From: Kondoa subrosea
Lineage: Eukaryota
Direction: 5' to 3'
Assembly: GCA_039545335.1 (NCBI GenBank)
Contig: BCIN01000002.1
Location: 3,329,564-3,393,563 of the forward strand
DNA length: 64,000 nt
Position numbers and translations under genes: made by a program. Numbering within the stretch: the stretch's first letter is position 1; each line of letters begins with the position of its first letter. Below, piece by piece: positions 8,234-54,659 of the stretch. A model generated the notes under the pieces. The model saw nothing but the letters and a program-made list of their open reading frames with translations. It was not told where the DNA came from and did no database searches.

Positions 8234-9032
8234 TGCATTGAAGGCAAAACTCGGTTGATGCAGATCAAAACAGTGCACGAAATTTGAGAGACGAGTGTTG
8301 GAGAGAAACAGTCATGCGATGTGTATGCGGTCATCTGCAGCACTGCTTTCGAACCAGCTGCTTCTGCTATCGTGATCTCACTTGTATCTGCTGAATCTAG
8401 CCTGAGCTGGTAGCATGTTGAGACTTGTGTGGCATTTGCCTTCTGTGTTCTACTCTCTTTTCACAGTCTTCGCTATACTTTTATTGCTCTTTTGTCCTTT
8501 CCTGCTCCGATTCATGCGTTCCTGCAGTTTATAAAGCTGCAATCCAAAGTAACCATAGCCCAGTGTTGGGTCTCCCTTATTCACGCGGGATGTCTGTCTG
8601 GCAAGCAGTAGCTTTCTTCCTGTTTCGTCTTCAAGCTTTATCAGAAGGAAACTCCGATCATTTGGGGACCTTGTCAAGTGTGCTCGTCAGGATACAGATG
8701 GATACAGCATCGATCTAAGTTCTCTCAAAAGGACCAGCAGTTAATGAGTGATTATACCTTTGCTTGGGCCGTACTATCGTATTCTTATAATCATTTGGCC
8801 GATTCCATGGCTTTGATGTCTGGGCACATAATGTCCGAATAGCCATCATCGTGAGCACGATGCTGCCAAAGTCTGGTGACTGTCTCGTAAACTAGAAACA
8901 AATGAAGGAATATGCATACGAATTGAAGTACAAGAAGAAAATGTCCATGCCCATACAATGCAGCCTCAAAGAGCGGACGAGCTAGCTTTACGAAATCAGC
9001 CTTACGATCAGGATATGCGTGGAAGTCTTACC

Positions 9033-9780
9033 TCATGAATGTGAAGCACCATGTGAAGCCATCTAACGAATTTACGACCAGCTTTCAACAGTGCTTTAGA
9101 GATGAGCTGCAGCCGAACTCACCTCTTGCTCCTTCTTCTGGTTTTTGCGCCACCTCCGCGTAGCCTGTTACGCGTATTCAGCCACGTGCCAAACCCTGAT
9201 TTGATAGCGAAGACCGACTAGCTTTTTCTGCAACTGCCTCCTGCTCGACTTTTGCTCCTCATTCAGCACTATTACCAGAATTTGCTTCATTGTTTGGCTT
9301 GGCTTAATGAACTCACTGTCAGGTTTGGCCATTAATAGTAAGGTTTCGGTACCGGTAAAATCTAGAGCGTCTGTTGGAGGATTCATCAGGCACCTTCATT
9401 AACATATGCTTGGGCCTTGTGCTTACGCATCTCTTCTTCGAGGGCGGTGTGACAGGCTTGACTTCCCGCGGCTGGACCAGAAGCCATAACTCTCGGCTGA
9501 GTAGGATGAAGGCCTTCATGATACGGCACACTTTCATTCTGTCAAACGAGTCAGACAGCAGTAAAACATTCAGGAGAATCCTGACGCTGTAATGCAATTC
9601 GGCCGCATATTCAGCTGACTAGACAAACAATAGTATGATGAGCAGGAATCAAGACATTTGTAGTTGACCTACTATCTGGGTGTAGGGTGATGGAGTATGC
9701 TCAGAGCCGTGATGCAAAAAGTATTGATGGGCAGGGCCGGCTCCGTTTGATTTGATATGAGGGTAAGGGAGCGAAGTCAT
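9033..9780 (-). CDS. Small 7-exon protein with a bZIP-like basic region and no leucine zipper (paralog A)
   Basis: Manual splicing gives an open frame: MTSLPYPHIK...YTQI|SAEYAAELHYS|NESVPY...EEEM|HALDF...KPD|MLNEEQKSSRRQLQKKL|ATRRWRKNQKKEQE|MASHGASHS-TGA. Intron positions match those of the paralog at 26783. Confidence 0.65.
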
Positions 9781-11690
9781 GATGCTTAGTATCGAAAGAC
9801 TACAAATGAAGAGAGGGAAGAGTTGGTGAGACGGTTAAGAGAAGAGAGAGGAGAATATTAATCGAGCGATTTTGTCTTCTGAAGAAGAAAGGGGTTGTCT
9901 CGGATTTGGAACATATGGCTGAAGATTATCACGTGGCATTGCCAAGAGAGCACTGGTAAGAGATACGCAATGCAAAGCAGACCACTGAAGGATAGCAGTA
10001 GCTTGAAATCGTGACAAAAGACCTGCGGATGCCGCGAGATACCGGACAGACGTCAAGAGATGCAATACAGGCCAGGCGATGTAATGTGATATCCTCGCAA
10101 GGGGACGATTGCTGCATACGCTACTACGACAGTACTCAATCTGGAAGTTCTCGTATTTTGCCGGAGGCACAGCCGCAGGACGATAATATCCGCCAGCTGA
10201 ACGAGAAGCATCAATTGCTAACGAGACGAGTAAAGGCGCTTGAAAAGCCTAAGATCACGAGACAGACAGCAGTGGAGTTGAGGAGACCAGTTCAGCTTAA
10301 TTCGGATCTGCTCGATACAAACGCAAGAAGACTAGATACCCATAACCTTAGGATAGCAGTAGAGCCAAAGGAGACTGGGCAACAGGCAGCTTGATATTGC
10401 GTCCATTGACTGAAAGGACTAAAGCGTATTTAGCAGAGCATTGTAAAGCCGAAAATCACGGAAGCAGATAGCCTGTTCCAGTACTTGAGATTGTACTTGT
10501 ACATATACAGGCAATTCGTTCGTCCTTCAAAGAGCTCAGGGTCTTTAGATTTGATTTTTCGACTCCAACCTGAAGTCTTCAAGCAATCCCGACATTCCAC
10601 GATTGAGGCATTGTTGATGACGAAGTGATCCGACTGAACAATCAAATTGCAATCAAGAGCCGCTTGTCTTAAGTGTCTTCCTTGGTATCTTCGGCGTTTG
10701 GCAAAGAAGCCAGCTTTTCCGCAAACGAGCGAACGTCGACAGCAGCTTACCAGCCAGACCCTGCCAGAACTCTCCCAAGAGCGAGTACACTAGGACAGCA
10801 TTATACACGAGTTCGGGAGCTCCGCAGCCAGCTCAGCAATCTTCTTGCAACAGTGAAAGCATTCTACGCAAGTCATAGTAGGATACTTGGAAAGCTCTGA
10901 CAATAATGGAACTCTCTCTTCTGATCTCATTCAGCGACTACCAATATACGTTGATCTTCACGTCAAAGCTGCAGAGAAGACCGATTGGGCAGGCTTAGTA
11001 AGAAATGACAGGCTTCCAGGTCGCCAGATGAGCGTGCAAGACACACCCTCAGATGCTCTGAAACTCATCGTGTATCGTCGTCTTCTGAGTGAATCACCTG
11101 AAGTCATGATAACGCTCTGGAGAAGGGAATGGAACAGGCATCTAGGCGATTCTAACACAGCGACTGGTTTGACTGTGCTCAGGAATATGTGCCTCAGCAT
11201 GCAGTATACTTTCCTTGCTTCCAATTACAGCCGAGATCTCCCCTTCGACGATGCAAGGACTCTACTTTGTTTGGCACTTTGGGCAAATCTCGCTTACGTC
11301 GTGCAGGCAATTGCTGCCAGAGGTCTACCCTCTCATAATTGGGCTACAGTTCTTCTAGAAGCACTAGGCAGAAGGCCAGCGATGGTTGATAGTATTCTCG
11401 AACTATACAGAGACGAACCAGAAGTCATTAAAGGCTTTAAAGGCTGGCTAGACATCTTCTTTTTTACGCAACTCAAACGAAGGATCGATTGGATGGCCAG
11501 GATGAACAAGCTCATCTGGAACTCGCTCTAATTCGAATAGCTGCTGCTTTTCGTTGGTCTGTTCCTCAAGACAATATGAATCGAGTCCCTTCACATGCAA
11601 GGGTCGATATAGAAAAGGTCTTAAGACAGCAAACCTCAACCGAACGCTTCGCTCTTCTCTATTGTGATCCATTGTTCAAAATGACTCTCA
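9033..11690. repeat. Arm A of inverted segmental duplication (partner about 24905-27550)
   Basis: The reverse complement matches 24905-27550. Examples: 9836-9911 vs 26659-26740, and the proteins of ORF 10887-11531 and ORF 25088-25687 differ at only about 8 of about 180 residues. Confidence 0.9.
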
Positions 11691-18016: not shown

Positions 18017-18440
18017 TTAGACACGAACATTTCATTTGGTTTGTGCTTCTGCGTAGAGATAGATATACCGGACTGATCTCTCTCAATAGGGCATTTGGCT
18101 TGTACTATTATAGATTGTATGGCATTTTGGCATTGGATTCGTTTTAGCTCTGGCTTCGGAGGAACATGATTTTAGGAATATCAAATTCATCCCATCTACA
18201 CAAGCAGCGGCTGCGCTCCGCTCTGATCTTGATGTCTTGTTAATTGGTCGGGTCAATGAAGCTACATCAAAGTTGTGCTTTTCTTTCAGGTTTGGTTTCG
18301 TCGCGTTGCTCTCGTGTGAGTCTGCAGCACGCGGTCATATAGCCCAAGTAGTCTGACCAGGCAGTCTGGTTCCCCTTTCCCCTATTCGGCAGCCGAAAAA
18401 TTATTGATATTCCCATTCCAACTATGTTTTTCAGCTTGAA

Positions 18441-20153
18441 CAAAACTCGCTCGCTTCCTTCTCTTCTTTCTTTTCCATCTCACTTGACTTCCTCATTTTG
18501 ATTCGTCCTGTCCAGTTCTGTCTACACCCTCACTACCTTTGACAAGGCTCAAGATCACATTCTTTTGATTACAACCCCTTACGCTCCTTTCAATTTAACG
18601 AACGACTTTCACTGAACACTACCCAACGATGCGCACTACTTCTTTTGTGGCTTTAGCCGCCTCATGTGCCACTTCAGTATATGGAATGCCTTTACTGGGT
18701 CTAGGCGGAAATGATGTGAGCTTGTNCCTTGTCTTGTCCTCATACCTTGGGCTAATCAATGAGCTGCAGTCTCCTCTGGCTGCCGTTAATGCAAAAGTAC
18801 AGGTTNATGGATTGGTTACTGCTACTGTTGCTGCAACTGTATGTCTTTCTTTCNNTNAACTGTCTCAATTTTGGCTGATGTTTTGCGTAGGTCGGAGGAA
18901 GTGAAGGACTGTTGCAAGCTCACGCTACTGCTGGAGCACTCAACATCGTTTCTGTTTGCGCTGATGTTGATGTATGTCCACTCGCTAATTCTTCTTTTGC
19001 TCCACCTGACATTTCCTTGCAGGTCCTGGCCAACACACACAGACCTGACTGTCCTGGCTATCATCAACCTTCGTCTGCTCCTGCATTTCACTATAAGCCN
19101 ACTTCTTCTTCTTCTAGCTGGGTTCCTCCTCCTACACATAAGCCGCACCACGATGGTGACAAGAACAAAGGAACACCTCAGAACCCAAACAACTACAATG
19201 CTCAACCTTCTTCCAAGCCACAAGACAAATGTCCTTTCGGTTATTACAGAGATCGGCAATCAGGTCAGTGCGAACGCAACAACCCAATCCGTTTGGCTCC
19301 AAGACCAGTTCGACCACAAAACAATGCCTGCCCAACAAACTACAAGCAACATCCTTTCCTTCTGGATCTTTGCATTGATATCGACTTCGATATCGACCTC
19401 GATCTAGGCATTTCTGGTCCTCACAAAGAATGGGATTCAAATGACAACTGTCCTGGCAACTGGAAAGATCATCCTCATCTTTTGGCTGTTTGCATTGATC
19501 CTTTGGTTCGCTTTGATCTGGATTTGGGCTTCGGTGGCAGAAGACCAGACAGGCAGCAAAACTGTGCAGCTGGATGGTTAGCCCTCCTTTCTCTTTTCGC
19601 TTTGTAACGATTTGCTCACATTTGGTTTGTTTAGGCGCAAACATTCTTCAATCATCAACCTCTGCTTGAATGCTTCATTGGACATCAACATTCTCAATGG
19701 TCTTCTCGGTCGCACCTATGATCAGGATAACCGATGCACTGCTGGATGGACTCGTCATCCTACTGTCGCTGGTCTTTGCATTGATTCTGCTTTGGATATC
19801 AACTTGTTCAAGAACCAACGTCAAACTGATGCGAACGGTGGATGCCCTGCTGGCTATGAAAAGCATCCTACTATTCTTGATCTTTGCTTGGTAGTCAATG
19901 TGAGTTGTCTTTCCTATTCTTTATCACAGAGAACAAGCAGCTGATCGGTTTGGTTATAGCTCGGATCACTCACTGGATCGAGCAGCAAACCTCTCGTGGA
20001 TGCCAAAGCAACAGTTGGCAATACTGCGGCTCCTCTTGTCGATGCTAAAGCTAAAGTTGGCGGCAACAATCTAGTTGATGCTAAAGTCAAAGTAGCCAAC
20101 ACTCCTGTCATCGATGCCAAAGTCAACCTCAATGGCAAAGATCCGATTCTCAA
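18441..20153. repeat. Left arm of a roughly 1.7-kb inverted repeat (partner 38553-40275)
   Basis: Near-identical reverse complement; across the coding part, position x pairs with 58706-x. The ORF track gives mirror-image translations. Confidence 0.97.
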
Positions 20154-24198: not shown

Positions 24199-24718
24199 GG
24201 TAAGGTCACCTGTACAACATTAAATTTTGAAGCTTATTGAGGCAAAGCTAGCTCATCCGCTCTTTGAGGATGCATTGTATAGACATGGATATTTTCTTCT
24301 TGTACTTCAATCCGTATGCATATTCCTTGCTTTGTTTTCAGTTCACGAGACAGTCACCAGACTTTGGGAAGCATCGTGCTCACGATGATGAACTATTGAG
24401 AGACACATCGTAAGCGGCCAAGAATAATGAAGATTCGGCCAATGTCAGGAGGGCACGGTGTCACAATCATATGCAAACCTAACATCCCCAATTGAGTACT
24501 GAGTACTAACCCGCTAGAGCGAGATGAAATCATTGATGAGAGCAGTATTTGCGTCCGTCTGGCTTAATCTGCACACGACAAGGCCCCGAAATGATTGGAC
24601 AGTGTCCTTCTGATGATGCCTGAGCATTGAAGAAGGCTATGAATCGACAGACAGCTGTGCATAGCAACGACGCAAACTCAACCCTTAGGCTGTCTTTGCT
24701 TCGAATTTCAGTTGCTTT

Positions 24719-26420
24719 TCACTGTAGAGCGTACGGATGCGAACAAGAGGGACAGGAGAAGTTCAAAGCATAGCAGGTCCTGCAAAGTAAAGTAGAGCAT
24801 AGAAGGCACAATGTTGCAGTACACAAGTCCCAACTTGAAGCTGCAACAGGCAGATACACGATAGCAGAAGCATCTAATTCGAAAGCAGTTAGCATAACTC
24901 TCACGAGAGTCATTTGGGACAATGGATCACAATAGAGAAGAGCGAAGCGTTCGGTTGAGATTTGCTGTCTTGAGGCTTTTTCTATATTGACCCTTGCATG
25001 TGAAGGGACTCGAATCATATTGTCTTGAGGAACAGACCAGCGAAAAGCAGCAGCCAATCGAATCAGAGCGAGTTCCAGATGAGCTTGTTAATCCTGACCA
25101 TCCAATCGATTCTTCGTTTGGGTTGCGTAAAAAAAGATGTCTAGCCAGCCTTTGAAGCCTTTAATGACTTCTGGTTCGTCTCTGTATAGTTCGAGAATAC
25201 TATCAGCCATCGCTGGCCTTCTGCCGAGTGCTTCTAGAAGAACTGTAGCCCAATTGTGAGAGGGTAGACCTCTGGCGGCAATTGCCTGTACGATGTAAGC
25301 GAGATTTGCCCACAGTGCCAAACAAAGTAGAGTCCTTGCATCGTCGAATGGGAGATCTCGGCTGTAATTGGAAGCAAGGAAAGTGTACTGCATGCTGAGG
25401 CACATATTCCTGAGCACAGTCAAACCAGTCGCTGTGTTGGAATCGCCTGGATGCCTGGCCCACTCCCTTCTCCAGAGCGCCATCATGACTTCAGGTGATT
25501 CGCTCAGGAGACGACGATACACGATAAGTTTCAGAGCGTCCGAGGGTGTGTCTTGCACGCTCATCTGGCGACCTGGAAACCTGTCATTTCCTACTAGTCC
25601 TGCCCAATCGGTTTTCTCTGCAGCTTTGACGTGAAGATCAACGTATATTGGTAGTCGCTGAATGAGATCAGAAGAGAGATGTTCCATTATTGTCAGAGCT
25701 TTCCAAGTATCCTACTATGACTTGCGTAGAATGCTTTCACTGTTGCAAGAAGATTGCTGAGCTGGCTGCAGAACTCCCGAATTCGCAAAGAATGCTGTCC
25801 TAGTGTACTTGGCCTTGGAGAATTCTGGCAGGGTCTGGCATGCGGGTATGCTGCACTTGACGTTCGCTTGTTTGCGGAAAAGCTGGCTTCTTTGCCAAAC
25901 GCCGAAGACACTAAAACAAGCGGCTCTTGAACGCTCACTCGAATTGCTCGTCATCAACAATGCTGGGAACGTGCAAGATCGGGAACTGTCAGATCGCTTG
26001 AATGAATGGGAGTCGAAACAGGATACGAGCCCAAGCTCGAGCTCTTTGAAGAACGAAGAGAATTGCGTATACATGTACAAGTACAGTACAAGTACTGGAA
26101 CGGGCTGTCTGCTTCTGTGATCCTCGGCTGTGCAATGGACTGCTGAATCGCTCGAAAACTCTTCTTGGCCGGAATACCAAGCTGCCTATGTCAGTTTCAG
26201 CTGCTCCTGCAGAACTCCACTGGCACTACTGCTGTCGAAAGACTCTAACGAGACAGTCTTTCCGCGCGCCTGACAAGGATAAATTCGAATGAACGTGATC
26301 CGTCGACTCTACTGCTGCTTGTACCATCTCCTAGGCTGTACTCTTTCGAGGCCGTCTACTCGTCAGCAGTCGATGCTTCTCGGTCAGTTGGCTGACGTCG
26401 GCTTCCTGCGGCTGTGCTAC
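24719..26420 (-). pseudogene. Paralog (copy B) of the MYND-finger gene, with a premature stop and a different 3' end
   Basis: About 95% amino-acid identity to copy A over the core. An in-frame TAA at 25088-25090 replaces the GAA (Glu) of copy A. Similarity stops after LYCDPLxxMTL, and I saw no MYND motif downstream. Both ends are approximate. Confidence 0.65.
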
Positions 26421-27550
26421 TTACACGAACACGGAAATCTTCAGACTGGTGCTCTGGCAGAGCAGCGTATGTAGCAGTAGTCCTCACGAGGATGATATCT
26501 CACTGCATCGCTTGCCCACTCTAAAATATCTCACTGCCTCTGCAAGTCTTTTGTCAAGATTTCAAGTTACTGCCATCTTATAGTGGTCTGCTTTGCATTA
26601 TGTTTCTCTTACCAGTGCTCTCTTGGCAATGTCATCTGATATTTATTTGTTCATATGACACAAATCCGAGACAACCCCTTTCTTCTTCAGAAGACAAAAT
26701 CGCTCGATTTTTCTCTCTCTTCTCTTAACCGTCTCACCAACTCTTCTCTCCCCTCATTTGTAGTCTTTCGATACTAAACATTATGACTCCGCCCACGTAT
26801 CCCTATATCAACTCAACCGAATTCGCCGGCAAACAACAATACTTTTTGCATCACGGCAATCAGCATGCTCCGTCACTCTACAACCCGATAGTAGGCCAAT
26901 TACGAATGCTTTGTTTCCTGCTCATTATAGTATTGTTTGTCTAGTCATATGAATATGCGGCCGAAAGGGTTCATGGCGTCAGTCTAACTCTCCTGAATGC
27001 TTTACTGCTGGCTGATTCGTTTTGACACAGCATCCGCCTGTAAGATATGAAGGATCTCATCCTCCGGAGCGTCCGGACTCTCTGCCTCAACAAGCTAATA
27101 ATACTCAAGCAAGAGCCACAGCTTCTAACGTTGCTTCCGCTTCCGGCTTAGCCGCAGTACATCACGGGGCAAGTTCAAGTAAGTATCATGCTTAAGCGTA
27201 TGCCAATGGATATGGCTAATGGATGCTCGATCAGACGTTTCAGGCTTCAACGATAATCAGGAACATGTATTGAACGCCCAACATGACAGTGAGTGCATTG
27301 AGCAGAGTCGTAGAGTGGATTAAAATTTAGTGATAAGCGACAAATCAGGATCAGTTGCAGGAGAGAAGGAGATTACAGAACGCACAAGTCGGTCTACGCT
27401 ACCATTTTGGAGTTTTGTATGTGGCTGAGCTCAAAACAGGCCCAACAAAGGTTTCGCGACAAGAGAAAGTTGGAAGCTGAAGAGGTGAGCTCTCAACATC
27501 TGTTGTCTAGAAGCACCGTTGAAGGCTGGTACCAAAATCGTCAGATGAAA
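24905..27550. repeat. Arm B of inverted segmental duplication (partner 9033-11690)
   Basis: Collinear reverse-complement similarity through the MYND-gene body, the shared intergenic region and the exons and introns of the basic-region gene. Confidence 0.9.
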
Positions 27551-28268
27551 GCTTCTCGCATTGCCTCATCTTCAAAGATCGGTTCTACAGCGAATCAAAC
27601 CCCACTCCACCACGAAGCAACTTCGCGTAAGTCCGATGCCCAGGTATATGTTAACGGACTTGCTAATACCTGCTCGACTCAGACGTTTCAGGCCTTACTG
27701 ATTCTGTCAAACGCCCCACAAATTACAATTACGTTGATATTAAAGATTTCATTGAGAACCATCGTGGCCGTAAGTATCTTCTAGCTGGGTTGCGCACTGA
27801 TATGACAAATGCTTTGCTCTACAAGATTTCAGAAACAATGAACAGGAACAGTTGGAGAATTTCAAGGACAACTCTTCTGGTAAGAGCATTTCTCGTTACT
27901 ATGCATCGCTTTCGAATAAATTTGACAGGAAAACAGTCAGAGCTTGAGAGAAATATCCGAAGGAATGTCGTAAGTCAGGTGTCCCAGTATTACTGCGATC
28001 CTAACCTTGATATGATTTCAGACTAGACGAAAGGTACGAAGCTATTGGCACAGGATTGCATCGCTCAGTTTCCACCAGGTCGCGTCTGAGAGGCCCGGAT
28101 ATGTTCCACACATTTCAAACGCATGTCAGGAATGTAAACGGCTCCATGTAAGTTGGAGTCTGATCGCAAGACTTTTGATTGATACGCAATCAGTTGAAAT
28201 GTGTACCTCAAGGCAGCTCAGCTAAATGCAAGAGGTGTGCAGATCAATGCTGCACCTGTGTATTTTAG
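26783..28268 (+). CDS. Putative transcription factor with an AP-1/Yap-type basic region and a C-terminal Zn(II)2Cys6 cluster (paralog B)
   Basis: About 12 short exons splice in frame. The basic region QERRRLQNAQ|AQQRFRDKRK spans intron 27388-27439. The C-terminus ACQECKRLH|LKCVPQGSSAKCKRCADQCCTCVF-TAG spans intron 28148-28193 and fits CX2CX6CX8CX2CX6C. Two of the acceptors used are AAG. Confidence 0.7.
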
Positions 28269-28504
28269 CGGCTTGTTTTAGCTTGTTACCAATTATGATT
28301 TTCCGTACCTTCATAGCGATTGACTCTGCTAGCTATCTTCGGCGAAGAGTCATGATGCAGTTGTTGATCAGCTCATGATTAATCACCAGTCCCCATCCCG
28401 GAAGAGTGCAATGCCATTGTTACATAAAACACGTCATCGAGAACATGCCTTCGCGCAAATTTCACCTGAAAAGGGCATCCTCTTTCTGTAACGAGCAACT
28501 TACA

Positions 28505-30445
28505 ATGGCAAAGAAATCCGCACAGAAAGTTCATGACGCTCAAGAGCACGCTTCAGCCTCTGCTGCCAATGCTAAAGAAGCAGCCAGCGACGGCAAACAA
28601 GCTGCCTTAGCCAAATTAGAGGAACTGCAAGAGTCGGAACTCAGAGCTGCTCTGCAAAAGAAAGCGGCCAAGGCTGGGACTGCTGCAAAGGACTCTGCTG
28701 AATCTTTGAAATCATCTGCACAATCTGGTTTACATCAGGCTCAGGACAAAGCTCAAAATGTGAAAGACTCTGCTTCCAGTCAATTGGATGGCTTGAGCAA
28801 TGCAGCTTCAGAACAGTACGCAAGCTTGCAAGGTCAAGCAAAGGATGCACAAAATGCTGCATCTGGTCAATTGGCTTCAGCTCAAGATAAAGCCAGCAAC
28901 GCAAAGAACACTCTTATTGGTAAAGCTTACGATGCTCATGATGCTGCTCTAGCTGGAGCTCAAAATGTCCAAGATTCCGCTCGGCAAACAGCTGCGAATG
29001 CAAAAAATTCAGCTTTAGGTCCAGTTCGCAACTTGCAAGCTCAAGCAGGTCAATTGGAACACAGAGCAGAAGAACAAGTTCACAGGGCAAAGACCTGGTT
29101 GGATACCTTTGTTGGAACACCTTATTCACTTAGAAGAACTTACATCGCTTATGTTGCTGCTTTCTGGTCTTCTTCCCTTGTCAGAATGGCTTGTCTTTCA
29201 CCTGTGCTACCAATCTTTGGCAAACATCTGAGTGAGACTTTGGCACCTATTGAGCGGGATGATGTGTCATGGTGAGTACATGTGCGTATAAGCTAGGAAC
29301 AGACAAGCTGATTATGAGGTGGGGACGACATAGGCTCTATATTGCTTTAACCAAAGCAATCGATCTGGCTATGGCCGTATGGGTATATCAATCTGAAGGA
29401 AGCAAATTCGATGCTCGTATGCCGATGGCTACCTGAATGTCACTAGCTAATGAGTCTCCTAGCTCTTCTCGGCGTTCTGCTCACTATGATTGGTCGCCCA
29501 ACTCTATATCAATTCTTCCATCATCACTTTTTGCTGTCTACCAAAACGGTTTCTGAAGTGCTTCTGACTGATGCAACTGCCGGCGCGGCTGCTTTATTCG
29601 TATTGAGCTCACTTCTACCTTCGCCTGCTAGTGAGTCATCAAATAGATGCTTTGACTATAGCTGAACATACTTGCAGCTTTCCGTCCACAACCTGTAGCA
29701 TGGTTTAAGCGTCACCTCAATTTGGCTTCCTTCCAGTCTAGTGAGTCATTTGTGCGGGAATGTCGATCAGTCTTACTGATGCTTGCGTTCTGCTCACAGT
29801 CGGTCTCGCCCTTGCTCTTGGAGCTCTGTCTTCCGCCTTGATCGAATTCGTTAGTGACAGAACCTTTTTACACCAAGTCATGAAAGCCGGTCTCCTGGAA
29901 CATAGCATTCCATCATACTTTGCTGCCAGCCGACCTGCTTCGGCATGGGCTCTTGCACATCCCCTTGTCAGCATTCCTACATTACGAACCAATTTCGACC
30001 CACTCAACATGGCCGATGCAATCACTCGATCTCTGCCATTCACCATCTCTTTCCTCATCTTATCCCTATTCGTTATCCCTCAATTACCGACTAGAAAATT
30101 ATCGACAGTCGTTTTCCTGTTGACAACGCCTGCGGCATTCTTCACGCTTTGGAACATCTTACCAGTCACTGCTTGGTCTTCTGGAGTAGCTTCGTTGGTC
30201 ATGGGCTTACGACAAGCTTTAGTTGCATCGTATGTCCCGTGTACTGATACCAGCTTGTGAATTTAGCTTATCTTGATTCTGAAACTTACAGAATCATGGC
30301 TTGGGTTCTTGCGGACCTAAGAAGACCTGTAGAGACCAAAGATGTGGCTACTAGTGTACAGGTCACTACTTCCAGAGTCGTTGGAAGAGAATTGGATGGC
30401 TCTAGATTGATTGAAGAGGAATCTATTGAACGCAAGAATCTTTGA
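28505..30445 (+). CDS. Protein with an N-terminal LEA-like Ala/Gln/Lys repeat region and a multi-pass membrane C-terminal half
   Basis: About 190 aa of AQDKAQNVKDSA-type repeats, followed by many hydrophobic helices in exons 29130-30300; ends ...EESIERKNL-TGA. Confidence 0.7.
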
Positions 30446-30806: not shown

Positions 30807-32266
30807 TCAACCCAACAATGCTTCTTTAGTTCGATCCCTCGTACTTTTGAGGAAAGAAACCAAATTCGTTCCGCCAGTCCCCTTCAATTCCTTGGTTCCT
30901 TCCTTCTTCTGCTTCGCAGCTCCCTTCATTGCAGCTTCTTTAGCAGGTTGGATAATGAAACGATAAACCACTCTCATATGAGCGTCTCTAAATTTCTTAA
31001 GCGCTTCAACACTCTTGTCATACCCTCGAACCAACTCTTCATTTCCTTCTTCTAGAGCTAATGTTCGAATTGAAGGTTCTTGCTTGCTTAAATGGCGTAG
31101 AAAGTTTCGATGATGATGTGGCATATAGTTTGACATTCGGAGCATGAAAGTTTCATCGTGTCCCTTAGATTCTTCTGGTGGATTATGTAGTACACCAAGG
31201 AAGACGTCGAAGGAGTGAACCAAAGCGGATTGACCAGCTGATGGACCACCAAAGGTATGGATCGTGCTCGAGGGTAGATGGAGGAAAGAACCGCCGTTGA
31301 ACCAAGGTCTGATATCATTATAGAAAGAATGTGGAGTGCAATGAGTAGAGACTTGTTCCATTGTAATTGAGAGTTGATCAATAACGGAAGCGAGAGAAGT
31401 GAGGTAAGAAGCGATACGAAGATGAGCCAAAGAATCGTTGACGAAAGCTTCATCCAGCGATGTGGCCATATAACGTAATGCTGGCACACCTTGTAATTCG
31501 ATCAGAAGGGAAGTGAGGTAGAAATGTTCTTCAGATCGAGTGTTTGTGAAAGTTTGAACCATTTGCAGATTGCTGTACACGACAATCAGATGTTGTATGG
31601 ATATATTAGACATGACGCGTACTCTGCAACAAAGCCACGTTCTGGATTAATGTAATCCCAATTCCACAAGACTGTGTCAGCATAAGTGAGAATAGGCGGC
31701 ATATCTAGTCGAGAAGAGACTTGAAGCCACGGGATCGATATTGCAGGAGGGATTATAGGATTTTGACCGTGTATTGACGCCGAAGAATGGACGTATCGAT
31801 GAGCGAGAAAAGAGAGAAGAAGATGAGCTCGTCGAAGCAGAGGCATAGTGTCTAAGCCCGCATCGCTGATGATTTGAGCTTCTTCCACTCGTTTCCTCCA
31901 TCTTCTAGCTTGATCTTTGTCTGTTATAGTAAGCTGCTCCGTAGCCAATTTGACTTCGGCTGATTCATCCCATAAATGTTCCCAAAGTTGCCATGGCGTA
32001 TCTGAAGCGAATCTTCGCAAAGGTGGAGAAGGAGGTAAGAAACCAGAAGCGACATCGATATCGAAATCTGCTGAAGCCAAAGTAGACAGATCGAGTCTAC
32101 CTCCATCTCGTTCAACGACATCTTCCGAAGTCAGTGCGGGTATAGCTTGAGACAAGAAATGTGAAGCTGGCAGTGATAGGAATTGCTGATCTTGTACTTC
32201 ATCGCAGACTTCGAAAGGTAGCTTGAAGACTCGCCGACCAGCAGCTGTAGAAGTGGAGGCAGTCAT
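30807..32266 (-). CDS. Indoleamine 2,3-dioxygenase (IDO, Bna2 family)
   Basis: Motifs SGFLP, LRRAHLLLSFLAHRYV, PPILTYADTVLWNW, FYNDIRPWFNG, GPSAGQS, MSNYMPHHHR, FRDAH and KGTGGT; one intron at about 31573-31620. Confidence 0.95.
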
Positions 32267-32578
32267 ATTGGTGTTCGGTAGGACTGTCGTAAATAGTCCG
32301 AGCGCTGCTCAGAGCTGGTGTGTATGAGAGTGTTGATGAGGTGGAAGGGTTACTTGCTATGAACAATGAATGGTATGAGAGCAAGGCTCCATCAAATATC
32401 AGCATGAAAAGGCATGAAAACAGCCACCGATTTTGTAAGCGCGAGCGAAATTTGGCTAAGTCATTTTTTCTCGACACAGAATTGCATCAAACACAGCAAT
32501 TGTCAGCGTCTCGAAGCCATGAAAAGGTGACATTTGCTGTAGCGACCACAAACAGACAGCAGCATCACCACCGCGAGA

Positions 32579-38470: not shown

Positions 38471-40077
38471 TCACAGACCAAGAAGCGAGCCTTGCTTGCC
38501 TCCGCCAATGTTCAGATTCAGATTAGCCAGATTGCCGACATGAGCATCAGCCTTGACTATCGGATCTTTGCCATTGAGATTGACTTTGGCATCGACGAGA
38601 GGAGTGTTGGCTACTTTGACTTTAGCATCGACTAGGTTGGTGCCGCCAACTTTAGCTTTGACATCGACAAGAGAAGCTGCAGTGTTGCCAACTGTTGCTT
38701 TGGCATCTACGAGAGGTTTGCTGCTTGATCCAGTGAGTGATCCGAGCTACAACCAAACCGATCAGCTGCTGGTTCTCTGTGACAAGGAATAGGAAAGACA
38801 ACTCACATTGACTACCAAGCAAAGATCGAGAATAGTAGGGTGCTTTTCATAACCAGCAGGGCATCCACCATTTGCATCAGTTTGACGTTGGTTCTTGAAC
38901 AAGTTGATGTCCAAAGCAGAATCAATGCAAAGACCAGCGACAGTAGGATGACGAGTCCATCCAGCAGTGCATCGGTTGTCTTGATCATAAGTGCGACCGA
39001 GAAGACCATTGAGAATGTTGATGTCCAATGAAGCATTCAAGCAAAGGTTGATGATTGAAGAATGTTTGCGCCTAAACAAACCAAATGTGAGCAAATCGTT
39101 ACAAAGCGAAAAGAGAAAGGAGGGCTAACCATCCAGCTGCACAGTTTTGCTGCCTGTCTGGTCTTCTACCACCGAAACCCAAATCCAAATCAAAGCGAAC
39201 CAAAGGATCAATGCAAACAGCCAAAAGATGAGGATGATCTTTCCAGTTGCCAGGACAGTTGTCATTTGAATCCCATTCCTTGTGAGGACCAGAAATGCCT
39301 AGATCGAGGTCGATATCGAAGTCGATATCAATGCAAAGATCCAGAAGGAAAGGATGTTGCTTGTAGTTTGTTGGGCAGGCATTGTTTTGTGGTCGAACTG
39401 GTCTTGGAGCCAAACGGATTGGGTTGTTGCGTTCGCACTGACCTGATTGCCGATCTCTGTAATAACCGAAAGGACATTTGTCTTGTGGCTTGGAAGAAGG
39501 TTGAGCATTGTAGTTGTTTGGGTTCTGAGGTGTTCCTTTGTTCTTGTCACCATCGTGGTGCGGCTTATGTGTAGGAGGAGGAACCCAGCTAGAAGAAGAA
39601 GAAGTNGGCTTATAGTGAAATGCAGGAGCAGACGAAGGTTGATGATAGCCAGGACAGTCAGGTCTGTGTGTGTTGGCCAGGACCTGCAAGGAAATGTCAG
39701 GTGGAGCAAAAGAAGAATTAGCGAGTGGACATACATCAACATCAGCGCAAACAGAAACGATGTTGAGTGCTCCAGCAGTAGCGTGAGCTTGCAACAGTCC
39801 TTCACTTCCTCCGACCTACGCAAAACATCAGCCAAAATTGAGACAGTTNANNGAAAGAAAGACATACAGTTGCAGCAACAGTAGCAGTAACCAATCCATN
39901 AACCTGTACTTTTGCATTAACGGCAGCCAGAGGAGACTGCAGCTCATTGATTAGCCCAAGGTATGAGGACAAGACAAGGNACAAGCTCACATCATTTCCG
40001 CCTAGACCCAGTAAAGGCATTCCATATACTGAAGTGGCACATGAGGCGGCTAAAGCCACAAAAGAAGTAGTGCGCAT
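38471..40077 (-). CDS. Secreted Cys/His-repeat protein (copy 2)
   Basis: Inverted copy of 18629-20235 with the same exons. It diverges after NGKDPI and ends VKADAHVGNLANLNLNIGGGKQGSLLGL-TGA. Confidence 0.85.
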
Positions 40078-40275
40078 CGTTGGGTAGTGTTCAGTGAAAG
40101 TCGTTCGTTAGATTCAAAGGAGTGTAAGGGGTTGTAATCAAAAGAATGTGATCTTGAGCCTTGTCAAAGGTAGTGAGGATGCAGACAGAACTGAACAGAA
40201 CAAATCAGAGTGAGGAATTCAAGTGAAGTGAGATGGAAGAAGAGAGAGAAGAGAAGAAAGCGAGCGAGTTTTGTT
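38553..40275. repeat. Right arm of a roughly 1.7-kb inverted repeat (partner 18441-20153)
   Basis: Reverse complement of the left arm, including about 190 nt upstream of the ATG. Confidence 0.97.
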
Positions 40276-51858: not shown

Positions 51859-54659
51859 CTAAGTAGGTCGCATCTGGAAAGAAAGAAAGCACAATCAGCG
51901 TCAAAGACAAAGCCGGAAAGAGAAACTACCTTCGCGTTCTGGAGTGAGGCATATATGTCAGGGTAAGGAGATTCAGTCGAATCATAAACTGACCTTTACT
52001 ATGAGTGCCTTGTATTGCGAGACATCGCCATAGTGTTTTGCAGCTCTGCCTTCTGACACTACCCATAAATCTTTGCAGACTTCGTTGATGAACTATCAAA
52101 CCTATTAGCAGTGGCAATCATATGCGACGAGGCACTTACTCTTTCGTCGTGTGATACAACGAGTACTCCACCGGTGAAAACTGCCAGAGCTGCACTCAAA
52201 GCATCATGTGCTTCGATATCCAAATGATTGGTAGGTTCGCTGAAGAGGGATGTCAGTCGGTTGCTTTATATGTGTATGCAAAACTTACTCGAGAATTAAA
52301 AGATGTGGTCTTTGCAAAGCCAAGATGGCAAAGGCTACTCTTGACTTTTGACCTGCAAATGGACAGATATCAAAGGCGATAAAACAACATTTAGAAGCAA
52401 GTCACCTCCAGACAGTGTTCCTATCAGCTGCAAACCAGTGAGTCCAGTCAAACCAAAGTGACCAAGCTGGGTTCTGTATGCTTGTGAATCTTGACCGGGG
52501 AACAATCGTGCAAGATAAGCCACGGGCGAAATATCCAGAGGCAATGTATCGACTTGATGCTGTGCAAAGTCTGGAAAACTGTGTGAACACAATGTTCTAG
52601 TCGCCTGCGAAGCAACATACAAGAAACACGAAGTCGCCCATTTCGATTCATTTTACCATCGCTTGGTGTGAGTTCGCCAATGAGAAGCTTCAACAAAGTA
52701 GATTTGCCGGCTCCCTAACGTGATATTTAGCTGCTGCACGAAATGAAGTACTGCGGACGAGTGGCATACATTGGGTCCGATCAGACCAATGCGAGAATCG
52801 AGACCAATATCGATATTGACCCCTTGAAGAATGACTTTGCCTGTTCCTTCGTAGCTGAACTTGACTTCTTCCAATTGTAGTAAAGGTGGACTTAATTTGT
52901 CGGCTTCGTGGAACTTGAACTTGACAATGGCATCGTCTTCCGGTGGTTCTAGTTCAGGTAGTTTTTCCAGGATTTTGATCTTCATTTGTGCTTGTGCCGC
53001 TCTGTTTGCATTGTAACGCCATCGATCGATGAAGGCTTGCAGACCAGCTCGATACATCTGTTGCGCTTCGTATTCCCGCTTTTGAGCCTTTGCACGCTCT
53101 TCCTTTGTAGCATAGAATTGTGTGAAGTTACCTGAGTACTGACGTTAGTAACACACACAAAGCTGAGCATACAACTTGCCCTTATAGTAATCTAAGCGCT
53201 GAGAATGTTGATGTACGATATCTGTCGCTACCCTATCGAGGAAAGCACGATCATGTGATACGACCAGCAGAGTTCCGGTCCAAGATGTGGAGAGATAATC
53301 TTCTAGCCATGCCAAAGCAACTAAATCCAAATTGTTCGAGGGCTCATCCCTAACAAACTCGATTTAGCAGCAAACCACATGCATGCAATCCTTACTCACA
53401 GTAAGAGTAGATCAGGCTTGACAAAGAGTGCTCTAGCTAAACTCAAGCGCATTCTCCACCCACCGGAAAATGTTCTTGTTGCTTTTTCCTGATCCTCGGA
53501 AGTGAAACCTAAACCGTATAGCAGTTCTGCCGCTCTTGTTGGACCGGTCTCTGCGTCAATATCCAGAAGGAGCTGATGCACTTCGCCTAGCCTGACGCTA
53601 GCTTTCTCTTTCGCTTTCTCGTCTGCTGTTGAGTTGAGCTGTTCGTTCAATTCCTTCTCCTCCGCCATCAGGCGTTCTCTCCATACGTCCGCGCTGAGAA
53701 CACATTGTAGAGCTGAAGTATCATCGCCATGTGCTTCCTGCTCGACATAGAGGATAGATATATGGTTGCTGTGGCAGCGCTTATAAGCTGCGGCAATCGT
53801 AACAACTGAATGTAAAGCCTTACGGGATCGGTACCTAGAACAATCATCAGCCTCAGTCAAAGCAAGAATATGGCGTGACAGACTTCTCGCATTGCCATTT
53901 GCTTGAGCAGAGTAGTCTTACCGATACCGTTCCGCCCGATGAGACCATATCGCTGACATTACAGCATACATCAGTCATTATTTGCATCAAGAAAGCACTA
54001 CTAACCCTTCCAGCCGCCAAGGTAAGTTCGCCCGATGACAAAATGCGCAGAGAGCCAAAAGAGACATCGATGTTGACGAGATGAATGTCCTTGCTCTTGC
54101 CCTTCGCTTGACCCAACGATGATAAGGGATTTATCGCCATGAAAAGTTCCTCGTATTCTTTTTGTTTCTTGCTGGCATCCAGTAATTTTGTGCCCTCGTA
54201 CAGCTCCATACCGGTTCTTTTCGCCCTCTTTTCTGCTTTAGCCTTGATCTTGAGTTCGGCCTTCTCCAGCTTGGCCAAATCAACTTGAGTTGTTCGAGCT
54301 TTAGTCGTCGATGCGATGTCGACCGAACCTGGAAGGACTCCAGAAGCACCAGCTGAGAAAGCAGACAGAGTGACAATATGGTCAAGCTGCTTTGCACCCT
54401 TTGATGTAGACATAGTTCCGCCTCCAGCAGTTCGCATGAGATCTTTCAGTTGCTCAATCAAGTTCGACATTTTGGGTTCAGGCATATCTTCATCCTCCAG
54501 AGTGGGCCTGACGAGCGATTCGAGCTCTTCTCCATTGTCCTCTTGTATCGAAATCAGAGACCCAGGATCCAAAATATAATCCGTCAAGTAATTCAGCAAA
54601 GTGCGATCACAAGCTGGATTGACAGAGCTAGCCAATAGGTCAGCAGCGGCTTGAGACAT
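51859..54659 (-). CDS. GCN20: ABCF ATPase Gcn20/ABCF3
   Basis: Two nucleotide-binding domains ([59 protein letters not shown]), the linker [19 protein letters not shown], and no transmembrane segments. Confidence 0.93.

What the first reader, a model, noticed from the sequence alone, without database searches (positions are those of the whole stretch)
26783..28268. Hidden chimeric transcription factor: AP-1-type basic region plus C-terminal Zn(II)2Cys6 cluster
Seen: about 12 short exons splice into one frame containing QERRRLQNAQ|AQQRFRDKRK and ending ACQECKRLH|LKCVPQGSSAKCKRCADQCCTCVF. Each motif is split by an intron, so the ORF track shows neither intact. Established: N-x2-AQ-x2-FR is the Yap/AP-1 bZIP basic-region signature, and CX2CX6CX5-12CX2CX6-8C is the Gal4-type binuclear cluster, which is usually N-terminal and followed by a dimerisation coil. 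Here no leucine zipper follows the basic region and the protein stops two residues after the last Cys. Inference: this may be a monomeric factor reading a composite site with two unrelated DNA-binding modules, an architecture I do not recognise.
Basis: partly seen in the sequence, partly recalled or inferred. Interest (0 to 1): 0.82.

Follow-up and report, generated by a model that had tools for sequence, protein, structure and literature searches.

The report
Intron-rich fungal gene, C-terminal zinc cluster
A small, many-exon gene in a poorly sampled basidiomycete fungus probably encodes a DNA-binding protein that ends in a zinc-cluster motif, but its supposed AP-1-type second DNA-binding module is only a look-alike and such two-module factors are already catalogued.

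Summary
Eleven GT..AG-bounded exons (26783-28268, + strand) join into one 283-codon frame. It carries a bZIP-like basic stretch split by intron 27388-27439 and ends in a complete Zn2Cys6 cysteine pattern split by intron 28148-28193. Each pattern occurs only there among six frames plus 164,331 single-intron splices of the window.

An inverted, truncated paralogue (9780-9123, - strand) keeps exons 1-5 open with the same phases. It has only 3n exon indels, a TAG where this gene has the AAG acceptor at 27337, and the same GTCGGT donor.

- No leucine zipper follows the basic stretch.
- The N/AQ/FR signature is absent from the paralogue.
- No Pfam test of the spliced protein could be run, no RNA run was listed, and no orthologue was found.
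- Zn cluster+bZIP and Zn cluster+homeodomain factors are already catalogued (PMC5415576).

Verdict: a probably real, fast-evolving gene and a variant of a known kind. Interest is modest.

The parts
26504..26782 (+). Conserved upstream region (pyrimidine-rich tract, presumed promoter/5'UTR)
   Evidence: 234 of 274 aligned nt identical to the paralogue's upstream region; blastn 81% over 26504-27027
26783..26890 (+). Exon 1, start codon; donor GTAGGC
   Evidence: First ATG after an in-frame stop; 108 nt in both copies, phase 0
27031..27178 (+). Exon 2 (low-complexity N-terminal region)
   Evidence: Open in frame; the paralogue's exon is 36 nt shorter (3n); best codon score of all exons (+14.4)
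27244..27288 (+). Exon 3 (alternative in-frame acceptor at 27234 would start it at 27235)
   Evidence: tandem acceptors 9 nt apart in both copies
27338..27387 (+). Exon 4: first half of the basic stretch; AAG acceptor 27337, donor GTCGGT 27388
   Evidence: Paralogue has TAG at the homologous acceptor, the same donor and same phase, 50 nt in both
27440..27484 (+). Exon 5: second half of the basic stretch
   Evidence: bZIP-type pattern spans junction 27387|27440 only; 45 vs 42 nt in the paralogue
27485..27544 (+). 60-nt segment: either an intron (GTGAGC..CAG) or coding for a homeodomain helix-3-like motif
   Evidence: In frame, no stop, no CTRAY motif; Pfam Homeodomain E=0.0027, 17.9 bits, below cut-off 22.9; 19 of 19 PDB hits are homeodomains; the paralogue has a stop here
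27545..27626 (+). Exon 6; homology to the paralogue ends at about 27547
27692..27769 (+). Exon 7 (alternative acceptor 27682); 27563-27702 is an internal duplicate of 27115-27254
   Evidence: Local DNA alignment score 78 against shuffle mean 23.4, sd 2.6, max 36
27826..27879 (+). Exon 8; AAG acceptor 27825 is required for the Zn-cluster frame
   Evidence: AAG is the first AG 25 nt after CTGAT; using CAG 27832 instead ends the protein without the cluster
27929..27969 (+). Exon 9
   Evidence: GTAAGA..GACAG and GTAAGT flanks
28022..28147 (+). Exon 10: basic flank plus Cys1-Cys2 of the Zn2Cys6 pattern (28121-28147); no in-frame ATG
   Evidence: acceptor TTTCAG with CTAAC 17 nt upstream
28194..28268 (+). 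Exon 11: Cys3-Cys6 (plus two extra Cys) and stop TAG 28266-28268
   Evidence: Zn2Cys6 pattern spans junction 28147|28194 only
9060..10064 (-). Truncated inverted paralogue (exons 9780-9673, 9538-9427, 9361-9317, 9268-9219, 9164-9123); no Zn-cluster part

Best explanation
One intron-rich gene (26783-28268, + strand) of an under-sampled basidiomycete encodes a small protein. It has 283 aa, or 303 aa if the 60 nt at 27485-27544 stay in. The protein is fast-evolving.

Its one complete DNA-binding signature is a Zn2Cys6 binuclear cluster at the extreme C-terminus. With no linker or coiled coil after the last Cys, it most likely contacts a single CGG-type triplet as a monomer, in the manner of AlcR or Pho7. 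His sits at the base-contacting position four residues after Cys2, and basic residues upstream of the cluster would add contacts.

The Arg/Gln-rich stretch 140-160 residues upstream matches the bZIP basic-region pattern but is not a bZIP domain. It most likely serves as a nuclear-localisation or auxiliary, low-specificity DNA- or backbone-contact helix. In an intron-retaining isoform it would form part of a degenerate homeodomain-like helix-turn-helix.

Shown: the frame, the patterns, their uniqueness in the window, and the paralogue support for exons 1-5.

Inferred: that the gene is transcribed as one unit, that the AAG acceptor at 27825 is used, that it binds zinc and DNA, and that it binds as a monomer.
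For: - Single open frame from 11 exons.
- Zn2Cys6 and bZIP-type patterns occur only at the target junctions among six frames plus 164,331 splices.
- No in-frame ATG in exons 7-10, and a stop 6 nt before exon 10's acceptor, so the cluster must be spliced to upstream exons. The latest possible start is the ATG at 27545.
- Introns 6, 7, 9 and 10 begin with GTAAGT and intron 8 with GTAAGA. Six of ten introns have CTRAY 15-30 nt from the 3' site. AAG 27825 is the first AG after CTGAT.
- The paralogue keeps 119 codons open with the same phases. Exon length differences are 0, 36, 0, 0 and 3; intron differences are 6, 0, 1 and 2. It has TAG at the site homologous to AAG 27337, and the GTCGGT donor is conserved.
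- Only 2.3% of simulated neutral copies at 30% divergence stay open.
- GTC donors seem to be used in three other genes of the window.
- The in-frame codon score is +20, against -57 and -127 off frame.
- His at the position after Cys2 that is Lys18 in Gal4 and His in Put3; monomeric Zn2Cys6 binding in Pho7 and AlcR, with AlcR's base contacts within or upstream of the cluster (PMC6265462 passages).
- No zipper.
- The paralogue's stretch lacks the signature.
Against: - No transcript evidence of any kind.
- No HMM-level test of the spliced protein was possible. Contiguous halves of the Zn cluster give no Pfam or PDB hit.
- The two Zn-cluster exons have negative codon scores (-6.3, -6.2). The whole gene scores 0.06-0.07 bit per codon, at the bottom of the window's genes.
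- Exons are not better conserved than introns between the paralogues (244 of 344 against 226 of 299 aligned nt), and dN/dS is about 0.53 with saturated dS. Constraint is therefore weak.
- Four of ten introns lack a CTRAY motif, among them the three around the basic stretch.
- An all-canonical path that skips the basic stretch (exon 27349-27416, then 27545) is also open (274 aa). Its GTATGT donor is not conserved in the paralogue.
- The usual Pro two residues before Cys4 is Ala (recalled consensus).
- No orthologue was found. This carries little weight, because even the neighbouring IDO gene has no hit above 47% identity, and none above 44% over most of the query.
Confidence: 0.45

Rival explanations
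1. One reading: a monomeric two-module factor. A genuine AP-1/Yap-type basic helix reads a TTAC/TGA-type half-site, and the C-terminal Zn2Cys6 reads a CGG triplet, so that together they recognise a composite site.
For: The spliced stretch fits the bZIP basic-region pattern and N..AQ..FR, and does so only at this junction in the window. Composition-matched chance is about 1 in 1,000 for the bZIP pattern and about 3 in 10,000 for N..AQ..FR. The exon 4/5 splice is backed by the paralogue. Zn cluster+bZIP proteins exist in 10 of 191 fungal genomes (PMC5415576).
Against: - No zipper, and Gly/Pro or a helix-turn follows within 20-30 residues.
- bZIP basic regions fold on DNA as extensions of the dimeric coiled coil (established knowledge).
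- The invariant Asn is Lys in the paralogue, and AQ..FR is AT..WR.
- No bZIP hit for contiguous pieces in Pfam or PDB, whereas the piece holding the second half hits only homeodomains.
- The two modules lie about 140-160 residues apart.
Confidence: 0.1
2. The 60 nt at 27485-27544 are exon. The protein is then an atypical homeodomain-like helix-turn-helix (exons 4-6) plus a C-terminal Zn2Cys6, a member of the Zn cluster+HD type. The bZIP-like pattern is a by-product of the basic first helix.
For: - The segment is 3n, stop-free, lacks a branch motif and has three internal AGs before the CAG.
- Pfam Homeodomain E=0.0027, profile positions 29-55.
- 19 of 19 PDB hits at E<=10 are homeodomains. The best, Msx-1 (E=0.033), aligns to HD 16-58.
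- Two of the three hits among 1.84 billion representatives are multi-homeodomain proteins.
- W[FY]QNR occurs once in the window's six frames and in 4 of 300,000 composition shuffles.
- Against a local HD profile the retained form scores 14.2 bits, the spliced form -0.2, and 0 of 3,000 shuffles reach 14.2. That profile was built from hits selected by this same query, so the test is partly circular.
- Zn cluster+HD occurs in 35 of 191 genomes.
Against: - The score is below Pfam's cut-off (17.9 against 22.9).
- Arg53 is Gln, so W[FY].N.[RK] is not met.
- The alignment needs a 3-residue deletion between helices 1 and 2.
- Adding exon 4 lowers the local HD score (14.2 against 15.4).
- AlphaFold2 on the 62-aa piece gives two long helices, not three, and Foldseek finds no PDB match.
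- The GTGAG donor and YAG acceptor are conserved in the paralogue, where the segment carries stops and two compensating 1-nt indels.
- The multi-HD hits owe their E-values to summed repeats.
Confidence: 0.2
3. A decaying or never-functional chimera: a by-product of the inverted segmental duplication and an internal duplication. Its motifs would be relics or accidents, and it may be untranscribed or non-coding.
For: - Weak codon bias, negative in the Zn exons.
- Exons no better conserved than introns.
- The paralogue is truncated exactly where homology ends (27547) and stops 8-9 codons later.
- Non-consensus splice sites and missing branch motifs.
- The next gene's ATG lies only 237 nt downstream.
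- No homologue anywhere.
Against: - A complete 6-Cys pattern in frame, reached through ten introns without a single stop or frameshift over 283 codons.
- Both copies kept exons 1-5 open, with 3n-only exon indels.
- The upstream region is conserved at 85%.
Confidence: 0.2
4. Two separate transcripts: an upstream gene ending near exon 6, and a short downstream gene starting at ATG 27545 that alone carries the Zn cluster.
For: ATG 27545 is the only in-frame start downstream of the basic stretch. The paralogue shows that a product with exons 1-5 only can persist.
Against: There is no stop after exon 5 or 6 in frame unless splicing differs. There is no room for a terminator and promoter between exon 5 and exon 6. 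Strong donors and about 50-65-nt introns run evenly spaced through the whole region.
Confidence: 0.05

Closest known systems
Fungal dual-specificity transcription factors of the types 'Zn cluster + bZIP' and 'Zn_cluster + HD' (Shelest 2017, PMC5415576; Table 3, section 9 and supplementary Table 4 row read)
   Same: A Zn2Cys6 cluster sits in one polypeptide with a second, unrelated DNA-binding-type motif. These types are rare and usually single-copy: Zn cluster+bZIP in 10 of 191 genomes (at most 1 per genome), Zn cluster+HD in 35 of 191.
   Different: Those were called by InterPro domain hits. Here neither the bZIP nor the homeodomain reaches domain level, there is no zipper, and the Zn cluster ends the protein. 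Domain order and spacing in the catalogued proteins were not available to me.
Monomeric Zn2Cys6 DNA binders AlcR (Aspergillus nidulans) and Pho7 (fission yeast) (PMC6265462, abstract and discussion passages)
   Same: No coiled-coil dimerisation element follows the cluster. In AlcR the base contacts come from within or upstream of the zinc module, and the segment after the last Cys makes no direct contact with DNA. That fits a protein that stops two residues after Cys6.
   Different: Both are larger regulators with further domains. Pho7 uses a segment downstream of the cluster that this protein cannot have. No sequence relationship was shown here.
Ume6 of Saccharomyces cerevisiae (Anderson et al. 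1995; only the title seen in reference lists)
   Same: The Zn2Cys6 cluster is at the C-terminal end of the protein rather than the usual N-terminal position.
   Different: Ume6 is a large repressor/activator platform with residues after the cluster (recalled). It has no bZIP- or homeodomain-like stretch (recalled).
Yap/AP-1 bZIP factors
   Same: The N-x2-AQ-x2-FR basic-region signature with flanking Arg/Lys (pattern match).
   Different: No leucine zipper, so the defining dimeric architecture is absent. The signature is not conserved in the paralogue.

Membership tests
bZIP (PF00170 / PF07716) | Basic region signature N-x7-R/K with flanking basic residues (PROSITE-style pattern, recalled) | tested here: met
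   Regex matches only at junction 27387|27440; 317 of 300,000 composition shuffles match
bZIP (PF00170 / PF07716) | Leucine zipper: Leu (or similar) every 7th residue starting 10 residues after the invariant Arg | tested here: not met
   Residues at R+10, +17, +24, +31 are M,S,T,H (60 nt spliced out) or V,S,W,K (60 nt retained)
bZIP (PF00170 / PF07716) | Profile HMM score above the curated cut-off | tested here: inconclusive
No bZIP hit at E<=10 for 27337-27480, 27440-27626 or 27314-27784. The spliced protein was not testable with the family tool.
bZIP (PF00170 / PF07716) | Signature residues conserved in homologues | tested here: not met
   In the paralogue's homologous exons the Asn is Lys, AQ is AT and F is W
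Zn2Cys6 fungal binuclear cluster (PF00172) | CX2CX6CX5-12CX2CX6-8C spacing, with a small residue before Cys1 and a basic or His residue at the base-contact position | tested here: met
   Both the loose and the PROSITE-style (recalled) regex match once, at junction 28147|28194. His sits four residues after Cys2, the position of Gal4 Lys18 and Put3 His (PMC6265462).
Zn2Cys6 fungal binuclear cluster (PF00172) | Profile HMM score above the curated cut-off | tested here: inconclusive
   Each half alone gives no Pfam or PDB hit. The ESM Atlas look-alike search gave only a weak lead to 69-aa basidiomycete Zn_clus clusters (score 0.83).
Zn2Cys6 fungal binuclear cluster (PF00172) | Usual context: N-terminal cluster followed by a linker and a coiled-coil dimerisation element | tested here: not met
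   The cluster is the last 32 residues and the stop comes two residues after the last Cys
Homeodomain (PF00046) | Profile HMM score above the cut-off (22.9 bits) over the whole 57-position profile | tested here: not met
   17.9 bits, E=0.0027, profile positions 29-55 only; 15.2-16.5 bits for other extents
Homeodomain (PF00046) | Recognition-helix residues W48, F/Y49, N51, R/K53 | tested here: inconclusive
   W, Y and N are present. Position 53 is Gln, so W[FY].N.[RK] has no contiguous match at this site, while W[FY]QNR does.
Homeodomain (PF00046) | Three-helix fold | tested here: inconclusive
   AlphaFold2 without an alignment, on 62 aa lacking exon 4: two helices (2-17, 24-42), mean pLDDT 75. 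Foldseek against PDB found 0 matches.
Homeodomain (PF00046) | The 60 nt at 27485-27544 must be part of the mRNA | not testable with these tools
   No RNA run was listed

The most novel reading that the evidence does not exclude
A lineage-specific composite DNA-binding protein, assembled by segmental and internal duplication. Optional retention of a 60-nt, in-frame intron would switch the middle of the protein between a bare bZIP-type basic helix and a homeodomain-like recognition helix. Each form would be tethered to a monomeric Zn2Cys6 cluster at the extreme C-terminus. One gene would then give two factors that read different composite sites.
Probability: 0.08. Interest if true: 0.65.

Novelty: new variant of a known kind. 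Interest (0 to 1): 0.33.

Why it matters
If the gene is expressed as modelled, it would be a compact example of a Zn2Cys6 cluster that ends a protein and cannot dimerise through the usual coil. It would also carry a second DNA-binding-like helix. That makes it a small natural test case for how monomeric zinc-cluster proteins gain specificity, and for how dual-domain factors arise by duplication. The truncated paralogue and the internal repeat show the raw material.

It would not overturn anything. Dual-specificity factors of these types, C-terminal clusters and monomeric clusters are all on record.

Its practical lesson concerns annotation. In intron-dense fungal genomes DNA-binding motifs can be invisible to ORF-based scans, and a stop-free 3n 'intron' should be read as possible coding sequence.

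Tried and rejected
- RNA evidence: no RNA holder was listed for 26600-28500, so read laying could not be used.
- Whole genome: none is held for this window.
- Homologues:
  - A word-based search with exon 10 among longer proteins found no candidate.
  - An exhaustive HMMER search with 27440-27626 found 3 hits at E<=0.001. Two are generic multi-homeodomain proteins and one is a bacterial repeat protein. None is an orthologue.
  - In the metagenome scan, 597 stretches matched a pattern but none was confirmed.
  - These blanks weigh little. The neighbouring IDO gene's best-scoring hits are 42-43% identical, no listed hit exceeds 47%, and all named hits are Basidiomycota.
- Family tools on the pieces: PDB and Pfam on the two halves of the Zn cluster and on the first half of the basic stretch gave nothing.
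- ESM Atlas look-alike search: a weak Zn_clus lead for exon 10 and nothing usable for the 62-aa piece.
- Structure: AlphaFold2 plus Foldseek on the 62-aa piece gave no fold match.
- Splice-site training: an unbiased ORF-bridging harvest of introns was too noisy. A targeted version gave about a dozen plausible introns but no AAG acceptor to calibrate against.
- An alternative model of mine, with donor 27764 and acceptor 27832, breaks the frame ('HDret_altdonors'). I therefore found no route to the Zn frame other than AAG 27825.
- Mating-type HD1/HD2 pair: considered and rejected. The two copies are DNA-level paralogues of each other, lie 16 kb apart, and one is truncated.
- Continuation into the downstream Ala/Gln-rich ORF through a donor before the stop: considered and rejected. 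The only candidates are weak donors (GTATTT, GTGTGC), and one of them, joined to the acceptor at 28389, opens a short frame that stops at 28491.
- Ume6 primary paper (PMC2143208): not held.
Full report
WHAT IS THERE

The window is intron-dense fungal DNA with 46% G+C. It holds ordinary housekeeping genes: BIR, pyruvate dehydrogenase E1, Nop16, IDO, RPC82, an AMP-binding enzyme, PAP2, an ABC ATPase, aspartokinase and UCH. The IDO neighbour's best-scoring database hits are 42-43% identical. No listed hit exceeds 47%, and every named hit is a basidiomycete. The source is therefore a basidiomycete lineage without close relatives in the protein libraries, and this weakens every "no homologue" result below.

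THE OBSERVATION

The exons are 26783-26890, 27031-27178, 27244-27288, 27338-27387, 27440-27484, 27545-27626, 27692-27769, 27826-27879, 27929-27969, 28022-28147 and 28194-28268. All are bounded by GT..AG.

They give 852 nt and one open frame of 283 codons, ending at TAG 28266-28268. The frame contains the quoted strings, split as stated by introns 27388-27439 and 28148-28193. The protein ends two residues after the last Cys.

As a control for the freedom to choose splices, I scanned the six frames of the whole window and all 164,331 peptides made by removing one GT..AG interval of 40-150 nt on either strand. The following patterns each occur only at the two target junctions:
- the Zn2Cys6 spacing pattern
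- a stricter PROSITE-style version of it
- a PROSITE-style bZIP basic-region pattern
- N..AQ..FR

The patterns were written from memory. Composition-matched shuffles of exons 4+5 reach the bZIP pattern in 317 of 300,000 and N..AQ..FR in 84 of 300,000.

IS THE EXON MODEL RIGHT?

No RNA run was listed and no genome is held, so the evidence is internal to the window.

(a) An inverted paralogue. A self-comparison shows that 26504-27547 has an inverted copy at 10064-9060. Identity is 81% over the upstream region, exon 1 and intron 1, 65% further on, and none beyond 27547.

With the homologous splice sites, the copy has exons 9780-9673, 9538-9427, 9361-9317, 9268-9219 and 9164-9123. They keep the same phases and stay open for 119 codons.
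- Exon lengths differ by 0, 36, 0, 0 and 3 nt. Intron lengths differ by 6, 0, 1 and 2 nt.
- The site homologous to the doubtful AAG acceptor 27337 is a TAG.
- The unusual GTCGGT donor is identical.
- At the observed divergence (244 of 344 aligned exon positions identical), only 2.3% of simulated neutral copies stay open.
- This supports exons 1-5 as coding, including the intron that splits the basic stretch.

Constraint is nonetheless weak:
- Amino-acid identity is 42%.
- dN/dS is about 0.53, with dS near saturation.
- Exons are no better conserved than introns (226 of 299 aligned intron positions identical).

(b) GTC donors also fit best in three other genes of the window.

(c) Downstream half.
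- Exons 7-10 have no in-frame ATG. A stop lies 6 nt before exon 10's acceptor, so the cluster must be spliced to upstream exons. The latest possible start is ATG 27545.
- The Zn frame requires AAG 27825. Using the canonical CAG 27832 gives a frame that ends without the cluster, and I found no other donor that rescues it.
- AAG 27825 is the first AG, 25 nt after the intron's only CTRAY motif (CTGAT). This is the position a scanning spliceosome would take (established knowledge).

(d) Weak points.
- Four of ten introns lack CTRAY, among them the three around the basic stretch.
- Codon-usage log-odds favour the frame (+20 against -57 and -127). Per codon this is only 0.06-0.07, against 0.10-0.44 for other ORFs of the window, and it is negative in the two Zn exons.
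- An all-canonical alternative that skips the basic stretch (27349-27416, then 27545) is also open. Its GTATGT donor is not conserved in the paralogue.

(e) An internal repeat. 27563-27702 is an internal duplicate of 27115-27254 (score 78; shuffles 23.4 +/- 2.6, maximum 36). The paralogue is truncated where homology ends and stops 8-9 codons later. The gene therefore sits in a locus that has been built and rebuilt by duplication.

WHAT ARE THE MODULES?

Zn2Cys6. The six-Cys spacing is complete and unique in the window. The residue four positions after Cys2 is His. This is the position of the CGG-contacting Lys18 of Gal4, and it is His in Put3 (PMC6265462, discussion passages).

Each half alone gives no Pfam or PDB hit. 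The spliced domain could not be given to the family tools, which accept only contiguous references. Membership therefore rests on the pattern. An ESM Atlas look-alike search gave only a weak lead to 69-aa basidiomycete Zn_clus clusters (score 0.83).

bZIP. The basic-region pattern is met. The residues at the four heptad positions after the invariant Arg are M,S,T,H, or V,S,W,K if the 60 nt are kept.

The paralogue's homologous stretch has Lys for the Asn, AT for AQ and W for F. No contiguous piece hits a bZIP model or chain. I therefore do not file it as a bZIP.

Homeodomain-like reading.

Read through, 27440-27626 gives the following:
- It hits Pfam Homeodomain at E=0.0027 and 17.9 bits, covering profile positions 29-55, below the 22.9-bit cut-off. 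Other extents give 15.2-16.5 bits.
- All 19 PDB hits at E<=10 are homeodomains. Msx-1 (E=0.033) aligns to positions 16-58 with a 3-residue gap.
- Among 1.84 billion representatives only 3 proteins reach E<=0.001. Two of them carry 8 and 4 homeodomains, and their E-values reflect summed repeats.
- W[FY]QNR occurs once in the window and in 4 of 300,000 shuffles.

Against this reading:
- Position 53 is Gln.
- Adding exon 4 does not raise a local HD-profile score: 14.2 bits against 15.4 for the contiguous piece, -0.2 for the spliced form, and 0 of 3,000 shuffles reach 14.2. That profile was built from hits chosen by this same query.
- AlphaFold2 on the piece gives two helices with mean pLDDT 75, and Foldseek finds nothing.
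- The donor and acceptor are conserved in the paralogue, whose segment carries stops.

I rate this as a real possibility, most plausibly as an intron-retaining isoform. It is not a demonstrated homeodomain.

HOW IT MOST LIKELY WORKS

I commit to the following reading, at about 45% confidence. It is one gene for a small nuclear protein whose specific DNA contact is the terminal Zn2Cys6 cluster.
- The cluster binds a single CGG-type triplet as a monomer, because nothing follows the cluster that could dimerise.
- The precedents are Pho7 and AlcR, which bind as monomers. In AlcR the base contacts lie within or upstream of the zinc module, and the segment after the last Cys does not touch DNA (PMC6265462).
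- The basic stretch probably acts as a nuclear-localisation or auxiliary contact helix.

The rivals are:
- homeodomain-like plus cluster (0.20)
- a decaying or non-functional chimera (0.20)
- two transcripts (0.05)

COMPARISON AND NOVELTY

Shelest 2017 (PMC5415576; Table 3, section 9 and one supplementary row read) catalogues dual-specificity fungal factors:
- Zn cluster+bZIP in 10 of 191 genomes, never more than one per genome
- Zn_cluster+HD in 35 of 191
- bZIP+HD-like in 5 of 191

The other supplementary tables are PDFs that I could not read. They may name the species and give domain order.

A C-terminal Zn2Cys6 cluster is known from Ume6; I saw only the title of Anderson et al. 1995 in two reference lists. 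A phrase search for a characterised protein with both bZIP and Zn2Cys6 domains returned none (16 papers, none on such a protein).

The architecture class is therefore known. What is unusual here is a cluster that ends the protein, combined with sub-threshold second motifs. I rate it a new variant of a known kind, resting on in-silico evidence only.

VERDICT

Interest is 0.33.

Noticed in passing
window 18439-20153 and 38553-40275: A second inverted duplicate pair, 96.9% identical over 1,723 nt. Both copies carry scattered single-base N's. They encode the same His/Pro/Cys-rich ORFs (18891-19607 + and 39099-39815 -).
   Followed up: no
window 8838-11689 and 24244-27547: The inverted duplication that holds the finding's gene has very uneven identity: 93% at 10688-11689 / 25908-24905 (a divergently transcribed ORF with no Pfam hit), 81-82% at the promoter and exon 1, and 65% over exons 2-5. 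This suggests gene conversion or unequal rates along one duplicated segment.
   Followed up: partly
window 36717, and introns in the aspartokinase (about 55860-55960, -) and ABC ATPase (about 53850-53920, -) genes: The only well-fitting introns between Pfam-supported exons use GTC donors (GTCGAC, GTCAGT, GTCTGT). This genome may tolerate C at donor position +3 more than most fungi do.
   Followed up: partly
window 28505-29275 (+): An Ala/Gln/Lys-rich repetitive ORF with a hydrophobic C-terminal part (LEA-like in appearance) starts only 237 nt after the finding's stop codon. It has no Pfam hit at 1e-4.
   Followed up: no
window 30810-32308 (-): The best-scoring database hits of the IDO/BNA2-type gene are 42-43% identical and no listed hit exceeds 47%. 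All named hits come from Basidiomycota of several subphyla, so the source lineage has no close relative in the protein library.
   Followed up: partly
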